Source: Paraglomus brasilianum
Lineage: Eukaryota
Direction: 5' to 3'
DNA length: 36,308 bases
Assembly: GCA_910592345.1 (NCBI GenBank)
Contig: CAJVPI010000295.1
Location: 1-36,308, forward strand
Below the pieces are notes generated by a model. It saw nothing but the letters and a program-made list of their open reading frames with translations, was not told the origin of the DNA and did not search any database. Of the stretch, positions 5,340 to 5,736 are shown piece by piece (positions within the stretch are counted from its first letter, which is position 1; every line of letters starts with the position of its first letter). The position numbers and the translations under genes were made by a program.

Positions 5340-5736
5340 CTAATGACGTTGGAGTGGGGAATAAGGCTTTTTGGGAACGCCTGTTGAAAAAAAAGTAATG
5401 CAAGAGGCAATTAGTCGAATGTAAAAAGTGAAAAAGAGATAATTTGCTTAGAACCGGGTTGTGTTGCACTAATTATTCTAGCAAGCCCGTCATATACATG
5501 CCTTGTAATCGTTTCTTCAAAAACGTTACTTTTGATAAAGCGGCGGCGGGTTCGGGTATTTTAGCTGCAGCTGGAAAAATGGCATGGAAGTCGGAATAGA
5601 TGAATAAGCTATCATTATATACTTCCACGGCTAATTATATACTACTACGGTTATATATACCTTGTACAGCTTCCAGATGTAAAAGAGTCGCAACGACAGC
5701 AAATACAAAGAAACATCTAATCACTACAAGCTTCAT
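5340..5736 (-). CDS. Small secreted prepropeptide (61 aa) with IDA-like C-terminus; exons 5736-5661, 5570-5502, 5380-5340
   Basis: Exon 1 encodes a signal peptide (MKLVVIRCFFVFAVVATLLHLEAVQ) ending at AG|GTATAT. Acceptor TTTTTCCAG; exon 2 gives AAAKIPEPAAALSKVTFLKKRLQ. Donor AG|GCATGT, branch GACTAAT, acceptor T8CAACAG; exon 3 gives GVPKKPYSPLQRH-stop. A further GTATGT..TACTAAT..CAG intron (5339-5288) follows the stop. An alternative GT donor 4 nt downstream would change the C-terminus. Confidence 0.7.

What the first reader, a model, noticed from the sequence alone, without database searches (positions are those of the whole stretch)
5340..5736. Hidden secreted peptide gene resembling the plant IDA hormone
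Seen: three tiny exons, absent from the ORF track, give signal peptide + prodomain + KKR + LQGVPKKPYSPLQRH-stop. Known: Arabidopsis IDA ends ..PKGVPIPPSAPSKRHN and signals through HAESA/HSL2 to drive cell separation; KR is a Kex2-type site. The predicted tail matches G-V-P-x-x-P-x-x-P-x-x-R-H without gaps (7 of 13). CLE-type mimics are known from AM fungi and IDA-type mimics from root-knot nematodes; I do not recall an IDA-type mimic from this fungal group. Inference: a possible effector that loosens root cell contacts. The model needs a GC donor (AG|GCATGT); the kinase in this window uses one too. The alternative AT|GTATAT donor would give MRSQKALFPTPTSLVF instead.
Basis: partly seen in the sequence, partly recalled or inferred. 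Interest (0 to 1): 0.8.

Follow-up and report, generated by a model that had tools for sequence, protein, structure and literature searches.

The report
Hidden secreted peptide of mycorrhizal fungus
A root-symbiotic fungus has a small spliced gene, mis-annotated in public data, that likely releases a 15-amino-acid secreted peptide; the peptide resembles the plant cell-separation hormone IDA but lacks residues the IDA receptor needs, so it is probably not a working copy of that hormone.

Summary
The gene is real. One 296-nt contig from run X1 (depth 3, no mismatches) joins four exons. Its middle joint skips 121 nt, which fits only the GC donor at 5501; the GT donor would skip 117. The public Paraglomus brasilianum protein (57 aa) retains that intron and lacks the tail. 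The spliced 61-aa product has a hydrophobic N-terminus, a Kex2-type LKKR and a predicted 15-residue cationic peptide. The 7-of-13 match to IDA is strong as a single test (1 of 20,000 shuffles). But only 5 of the 12 receptor-read residues match, the S-[G/A]-P-S core reads Y-S-P-L, and the final Asn is missing; IDA without that Asn does not bind HAESA. No homologue was found, so conservation of the tail is untested. Best reading: a lineage-specific Kex2-released fungal peptide ligand, not an IDA-family member. A plant-receptor mimic stays open at about 20% (HAESA/HSL about 12%) and can be tested with one synthetic peptide.

The parts
5661..5766 (-). Exon 1: at least 30 nt of 5' UTR, ATG at 5736 and residues 1-25 (predicted signal peptide)
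   Evidence: Contig piece 5661-5766; hydropathy of 11-residue windows up to 2.86; no signal-peptide predictor was available
5571..5660 (-). Intron 1, GT-AG, 90 nt, phase 1
   Evidence: Joint skipping 90 nt; ends printed
5502..5570 (-). Exon 2 (69 nt): Ala/Pro-rich pro-region, LKKR and the first two residues of the predicted mature peptide
   Evidence: Contig piece; translation; also part of public protein P0001
5509..5520 (-). Codons of L-K-K-R (residues 43-46), predicted Kex2 site
   Evidence: Sequence; fits both the KR and the LxxR rule quoted in PMC8528282; cleavage not shown
5381..5501 (-). Intron 2, GC-AG, 121 nt, phase 1; retained in the public annotation
   Evidence: 121-nt joint; P0001 reads through it
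5340..5380 (-). Exon 3 (41 nt): the 13-residue tail GVPKKPYSPLQRH and the TAG stop, which forms the last three bases of the exon
5239..5339 (-). Intron 3, GT-AG, 101 nt, in the 3' UTR directly after the stop codon
   Evidence: Joint skipping 101 nt; ends
5159..5238 (-). Exon 4, 3' UTR (the contig ends at 5159; the true end is unknown)
   Evidence: Contig piece

Best explanation
This is a transcribed four-exon gene, spliced through a GC-AG intron, whose 61-residue product is predicted to be secreted and cut by Kex2 to release a 15-residue proline-rich cationic peptide that likely acts as the fungus's own extracellular signal rather than as an IDA copy. Shown: exon structure, use of the GC donor, reading frame and stop. 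Inferred from sequence and known Kex2 rules: entry into the ER through residues 1 to about 26, cleavage after LKKR (residue 46), release of residues 47-61 with a free C-terminal His; the internal KK is followed by Pro and is probably not cut. Inferred more weakly: it is a single-copy relative, in design, of the Kex2-released peptide precursors (alpha-pheromone-like KEPs) that are abundant in Glomeromycotina, acting on a surface receptor of fungal cells or on a partner outside the HAESA pathway. On this reading the IDA likeness mostly reflects shared proline spacing.
For: Splicing. Hydrophobic N-terminus and net charge +3. Kex2 motif rules. Kex2-released peptides are common in Rhizophagus and proposed as fungal signals. 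Against a working IDA: 5 of 12 identities in the receptor-read dodecamer and 0 when anchored at the C-terminus; IDA lacking Asn69 shows no HAESA binding and no receptor/co-receptor complex; core S-[G/A]-Hyp-S and the angiosperm consensus [PL][VI]PPS[AG]PSKRHN are not kept. Of the 8 microbial IDA motifs tabulated, 7 keep S-[GA]-P-S and end in Asn, and the eighth has a residue after His. Chance gives near matches: 1 other of 1,805 stop-anchored 13-mers in this window reaches 6 of 13, on the strand opposite a gag-like ORF.
Against: No target or receptor was identified; the 'own signal' step rests on analogy only. The IDA match is strong as a single test (1 of 20,000 shuffles by identity, 0 of 20,000 by BLOSUM score). 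With a general amino-acid background the expected chance count is only 0.003-0.08 per genome; it reaches 0.1-3 only with the peptide's own composition, and both ranges rest on assumed numbers of ligands and precursors. The IDA-like stretch coincides exactly with exon 3 and with the start of the mature 14-residue IDA. The precursor has no repeats, unlike KEPs. AM fungi do make a plant-peptide mimic (CLE) from Kex2-framed precursors. Transcript support is a single low-depth contig.
Confidence: 0.5

Rival explanations
1. Divergent IDA-type mimic: the released peptide engages host HAESA/HSL receptors, as an agonist or modulator, to loosen cell contacts or damp defence during root colonisation.
For: 7 of 13 ungapped identities at the C-terminus, 1 of 20,000 shuffles; central Pro, Arg and His are in register; exon 3 begins at the Gly that starts mature IDA. 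Gln for Lys at position 9 may be tolerated, since IDL1 has Met there, and would remove a KR that the fungus's own Kex2 could cut (inference). Nematode MiIDL1 is a working mimic. No CLE mimic was found in Paraglomus occultum.
Against: Terminal Asn absent, and IDA without it does not bind, which argues against antagonism as well as agonism. Ser62 is Tyr and Ser65 is Leu, both receptor-contact positions. The Pro-rich N-terminus that fits a hydrophobic cavity has Lys-Lys in place of Ile-Pro. PKGV is not seen by HAESA.
Confidence: 0.12
2. Ligand for another plant LRR receptor kinase of the CLE, CEP or PIP type, several of whose ligands end in His.
For: 15-residue length and the S-P-x-x-x-H end are in CEP register (compare the table). 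AMF CLE mimics come from the same signal + Kex2 design.
Against: Best identities are 3 to MtCLE16 and 3 to a CEP-type motif, with shuffle p of 0.56 and 0.60 (one representative motif per family only, PIP not tested). The CEP glycines and the CLE G-P-N-P core are absent.
Confidence: 0.1
3. Proline-rich cationic antimicrobial peptide acting on bacteria around or inside the hyphae.
For: Net charge +3; shares P-Y-S-P with drosocin, whose PYS motif is described as DnaK-binding; released by convertase cleavage.
Against: Proline is 3 of 15 (20%), below the 25% cut-off; no PRP motif; one Arg only, against the usual three or more. No activity data.
Confidence: 0.1
4. Young or weakly constrained small secreted ORF whose tail has no selected function, or whose main product is another isoform (intron 2 retained, as annotated).
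For: No homologue in any search. The stop is formed by the exon-terminal AG, so it could be a recent change. Only one contig supports the spliced form.
Against: Three clean introns, a well-formed signal and Kex2 anatomy, and exons 2 and 3 richer in GC than the introns (0.43 and 0.49 against 0.27-0.36). Small AMF peptide genes are often missing from catalogues: the RiCLE1 motif is absent from the Kamel 2017 tables.
Confidence: 0.18

Closest known systems
Fungal Kex2-processed peptide precursors (class 1 of PMC8528282; KEPs of PMC6339444; alpha-pheromone precursors)
   Same: Signal peptide, low-structure pro-region, dibasic/LxxR site, short released peptide.
   Different: One peptide copy, no repeats, no STE13-type dipeptides after KR; no sequence match in word searches of three supplementary sets.
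AM-fungal CLE mimics (RiCLE1 and relatives; PMC12037060)
   Same: Same fungal group; signal peptide, short variable region and a Kex2-preceded C-terminal Pro-rich peptide; single motif as in R. irregularis.
   Different: RiCLE1 is near-identical to plant CLEs, whereas this peptide matches MtCLE16 at 3 positions; no basic site after the motif. Precursor homology untested, because the RiCLE1 precursor sequence was not obtained.
Plant IDA/IDL and microbial IDA mimics (Meloidogyne MiIDL1; Colletotrichum and Melampsora IDA-like motifs)
   Same: G-V-P-x-x-P-x-x-P-x-x-R-H spacing at the end of a small secreted precursor.
   Different: No S-[G/A]-P-S core and no residue after His; predicted fungal Kex2 processing leaves two extra N-terminal residues; plant IDA is cut by subtilases.
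Proline-rich antimicrobial peptides (drosocin)
   Same: Cationic, P-Y-S-P.
   Different: Proline 20%, one Arg, no PRP motif.

Membership tests
IDA/IDL | Small precursor with an N-terminal secretion signal and a C-terminal motif | tested here: met
   61 aa, hydrophobic residues 3-20, motif at the C-terminus; signal judged by hydropathy only
IDA/IDL | Central Pro at position 7 of the dodecamer | tested here: met
   Pro in register (definition)
IDA/IDL | Core S-[G/A]-P-S | tested here: not met
   Reads Y-S-P-L
IDA/IDL | C-terminal His-Asn with Asn as the last residue | tested here: not met
   TAG follows His; IDA without Asn69 does not bind HAESA
IDA/IDL | N-terminal [PL][VI]PP | tested here: not met
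   Reads P-K-K-P (consensus)
IDA/IDL | Hydroxylation of the central Pro; signalling through HAE/HSL with SERK | not testable with these tools
   Needs peptidomics and binding or rescue assays
CLE (incl. AMF CLE mimics) | 12-residue R-x-V-P-[ST]-G-P-N-P-L-H-[NH] motif | tested here: not met
   Best 3 identities to MtCLE16, shuffle p 0.56
CEP | 15-residue C-terminal domain ending S-P-G-x-G-H | tested here: not met
   S, P and H in register, both Gly absent; 3 of 15, shuffle p 0.60
Kex2-processed fungal peptide precursor | Signal peptide plus KR/LxxR site before the released peptide | tested here: met
   LKKR at residues 43-46; sequence test only
Kex2-processed fungal peptide precursor | Actual cleavage and secretion | not testable with these tools
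   Needs an in vitro Kex2 assay or secretome peptidomics
KEP (repeat type) | Repeated motifs separated by Kex2 sites | tested here: not met
   One KR site and one peptide; exon 2 and exon 3 are not alike beyond chance (p 0.62-0.88)
PrAMP | At least 25% proline | tested here: not met
   3 of 15
PrAMP | Net charge of +1 or more | tested here: met
   +3
PrAMP | Antimicrobial activity with DnaK or ribosome target | not testable with these tools
   Needs an assay

The most novel reading that the evidence does not exclude
Early-diverging AM fungi, in which no CLE mimic has been found, carry an independently evolved IDA-like peptide hidden from proteome searches by a GC-AG intron. It engages HAESA/HSL-type receptors without the terminal Asn and uses the host's cell-separation programme to enter the root.
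Probability: 0.12. Interest if true: 0.82.

Novelty: new member of a known kind. Interest (0 to 1): 0.42.

Why it matters
The corrected model shows that a GC-AG intron can hide the peptide-coding exon of an AM-fungal secreted precursor from public proteomes. Statements that early AM lineages lack plant-peptide mimics rest on such proteomes, so they deserve a spliced re-search. If the peptide did act on HAESA/HSL receptors, it would be a mutualist's IDA-type signal, which my literature searches did not turn up, and would offer a route by which AM fungi use host cell separation. If it is the fungus's own signal, it adds a candidate ligand to a lineage whose peptide signalling is unexplored. Either way the test is one 15-residue synthetic peptide.

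Tried and rejected
No run on record as RNA was listed; X1 is a guessed RNA run. Over 21500-33600, X1 laid 4 contigs (2 near-identical, 2 at 90-95%) with no joints and no cover of the kinase; this says nothing on expression level. Protein searches returned only the window's own annotated protein: exon-2 frame, P0001 near lengths, 1.84 billion representatives, longer proteins 0 of 159 candidates. All used queries without exon 3, so relatives sharing only the tail could not be found. ESM Atlas: no usable hit for P0001 or for a 22-residue stretch ending in the tail. Pfam: 0 families. PDB sequences: 0. Rfam: 0. Degenerate tail pattern in JGI metagenomes: 30 loci, GC 0.41-0.74, 10 of them one repeated sequence, none with a fungal-type acceptor or upstream KR (4 of 30 checked for ORFs). 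The window's own locus was not among them, so this blank does not test conservation. Word searches of supplements found no related peptide; the PNAS appendix with AMF CLE sequences was not among the files that matched. Rejected: GT donor at 5497. Inconclusive: origin of exon 2 by internal duplication; introns 1 and 2 align at z 3.4, second of 45 intron pairs, behind an unrelated pair at 3.9, and z 0.7 once splice signals are trimmed. A second 5-of-13 IDA-like stretch in exon 2 (shuffle p 0.01, found after the fact) is treated as chance. No structure or complex prediction was run: the peptide is too short and no receptor sequence was at hand. Earlier-findings look-ups gave nothing relevant.

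Full report
Organism and setting. The exon-2 frame retrieved one protein, P0001 (57 aa), which the source names as Paraglomus brasilianum, on a contig of 36,308 bases, the length of this window. Neighbours are a phosphoesterase, P450s, a protein kinase and retrotransposon remnants; nothing links them to the peptide gene.

The gene. Donors and acceptors were listed and six splice models translated. The one run listed for 5000-6000 (RNA status guessed) holds a 296-nt contig, depth 3, with no mismatch, made of four pieces: 5766-5661, 5570-5500, 5378-5340 and 5238-5159. Nothing else in 4500-7500 was covered. The middle joint removes 121 nt; all five possible placements give one sequence, and one placement is GCATGT..ACAG at 5501-5381. 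The GT donor at 5497 would remove 117 nt. A third intron starts on the base after the TAG and ends at 5239. The public protein reads through intron 2 and so lacks exon 3. The support is one contig from one run: it shows presence, not level, tissue or isoform share.

Anatomy. Residues 3-20 are strongly hydrophobic (11-residue means up to 2.86). A cleavage near Ala26 fits the small-residue rule (recalled; no predictor was run). L-K-K-R at 43-46 fits both the dibasic and the LxxR Kex2 rule (PMC8528282, passages). The predicted product is residues 47-61: Leu-Gln from exon 2, then GVPKKPYSPLQRH, net charge +3, mass 1,747 Da. Cleavage and secretion are inferred.

Is the IDA match more than chance? 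As a single test, yes: 7 of 13 identities, reached by 1 of 20,000 composition-keeping shuffles, and by 0 of 20,000 on BLOSUM score. The four other motifs tested gave identity p values of 0.14 (IDL1), 0.56 (MtCLE16), 0.60 (CEP type) and 1.0 (RaxX). The weak match to IDL1, an active family member, suggests the likeness is to one sequence more than to the family. Allowing for many ligands and precursors (my assumptions: 10-100 ligands, 100-300 precursors, 3 offsets) gives 0.003-0.08 such matches per genome on a general background and 0.1-3 on the peptide's own composition. In this window, 1 other of 1,805 stop-anchored 13-mers reaches 6 of 13, opposite a gag-like ORF. A listed R. irregularis secreted candidate, RiSP610, holds an internal stretch with 8 of 12 identities to the IDA dodecamer, counted by eye (PMC5293756, supplement word search). 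The match is therefore notable but not decisive.

Could it work as IDA? HAESA reads the dodecamer 58-69; the PKGV extension has no density and adds no affinity; deleting Asn69 abolishes binding and complex formation (PMC4848090, passages). HSL1 work defines an S-[G/A]-Hyp-S core and a hydrophobic cavity for the Pro-rich N-terminus (PMC8847575, passages). The angiosperm consensus is [PL][VI]PPS[AG]PSKRHN (PMC4627355, passages). The fungal tail keeps 5 of 12 positions, has Tyr and Leu at the two serines and Lys-Lys in the Pro-rich part, and stops at His. Of 8 microbial IDA motifs in PMC8618561 (table), 7 keep S-[GA]-P-S and the final Asn. In favour of mimicry: mature IDA is reported as a 14-mer starting at the same Gly (PMC5972575, passages); position 9 need not be basic; Gln there would spare the peptide from the fungus's own Kex2 (my inference); and AM fungi already make CLE mimics from Kex2-framed precursors, none of which was found in P. 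occultum (PMC12037060, passages and section 7).

Relatives. None found. Three searches of the 5.8-billion collection, one of 1.84 billion representatives, two Atlas look-ups, Pfam and PDB gave only P0001 or nothing. The large searches used queries without exon 3. A degenerate tail pattern gave 30 metagenome loci, all judged chance. Word searches of supplements to PMC5293756, PMC6339444, PMC7329392 and PMC9453076 found no related peptide; the last holds only counts. These blanks are weak, since tiny intron-split AMF genes are easily missed or mis-annotated, as this one was.

Mechanism. I commit, at 0.5, to a secreted, Kex2-released peptide ligand of the fungus's own, in the design class of the precursors described in PMC6339444 (passages) and PMC8528282, but with a single copy. 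Splicing and frame are shown; secretion and cleavage are predicted; the target is a guess. Rivals: HAESA/HSL mimic 0.12; ligand of another plant LRR receptor 0.10; proline-rich antimicrobial peptide 0.10 (shares PYSP with drosocin but has 20% proline; PMC7736402, passages); unconstrained or minor isoform 0.18.

Novelty. Searches for an AM-fungal IDA mimic or this gene (listings only, plus passages of PMC8618561, PMC11756074, PMC11538016 and PMC9453076) showed none. The library lacks most subscription papers, and I did not see the original RiCLE1 paper or the PNAS appendix, which may bear on precursor homology. Verdict: observation confirmed; a new member of a known kind of precursor; not an IDA-family member on the tested features; mimicry unlikely but open and cheap to test.

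Noticed in passing
window 5339-5342 (-): The stop codon TAG supplies the AG of a strong donor (TAG|GTATGT), so a 3' UTR intron begins on the next base. Whether the stop is old or recent cannot be told without orthologues.
   Followed up: partly
window 5661-5673 and 5502-5514 (-): Exons 1 and 2 both end in TACAAG and encode Q-G at the junction, in the same phase. Skipping exon 2 would put the tail directly behind the signal peptide (38 aa); the contig includes exon 2. A duplication origin was inconclusive.
   Followed up: yes
window 5524-5562 (-): The exon-2 pro-region has a second stretch with 5 of 13 identities to IDA, at positions mostly complementary to those kept in exon 3 (shuffle p 0.01, found after the fact).
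   Followed up: partly
PMC5293756 supplement file 1, row RiSP610: A listed R. irregularis secreted candidate of 198 aa has an internal stretch matching the IDA dodecamer at 8 of 12 positions, including the K-R-H-N end; it is not at the C-terminus.
   Followed up: no
window 29983-30056 (-): GC-AG intron in the kinase gene (GAG|GCAAGT), frame-consistent; no RNA cover.
   Followed up: partly
window 9478-10209, 12528-13328, 15070-15780, 18210-18923 (-): Tandem family of four similar helical ORFs; of the 3 scanned, none passed a Pfam cut-off. Some are preceded by short exons with a hydrophobic segment.
   Followed up: partly
window 21867-23776 (+) and 27067-28852: Two closely related cytochrome P450 genes flank decayed retrotransposon sequence (about 24443-26685). 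In the second copy, the three exon ORFs are all on the minus strand but appear in ascending coordinate order (27067-28275, 28202-28534, 28535-28852), which suggests piecewise rearrangement or an assembly artefact.
   Followed up: no
window 6923-7980 (+): Secreted phosphoesterase-family gene (PF04185), divergently oriented about 1.2 kb upstream of the peptide gene.
   Followed up: partly
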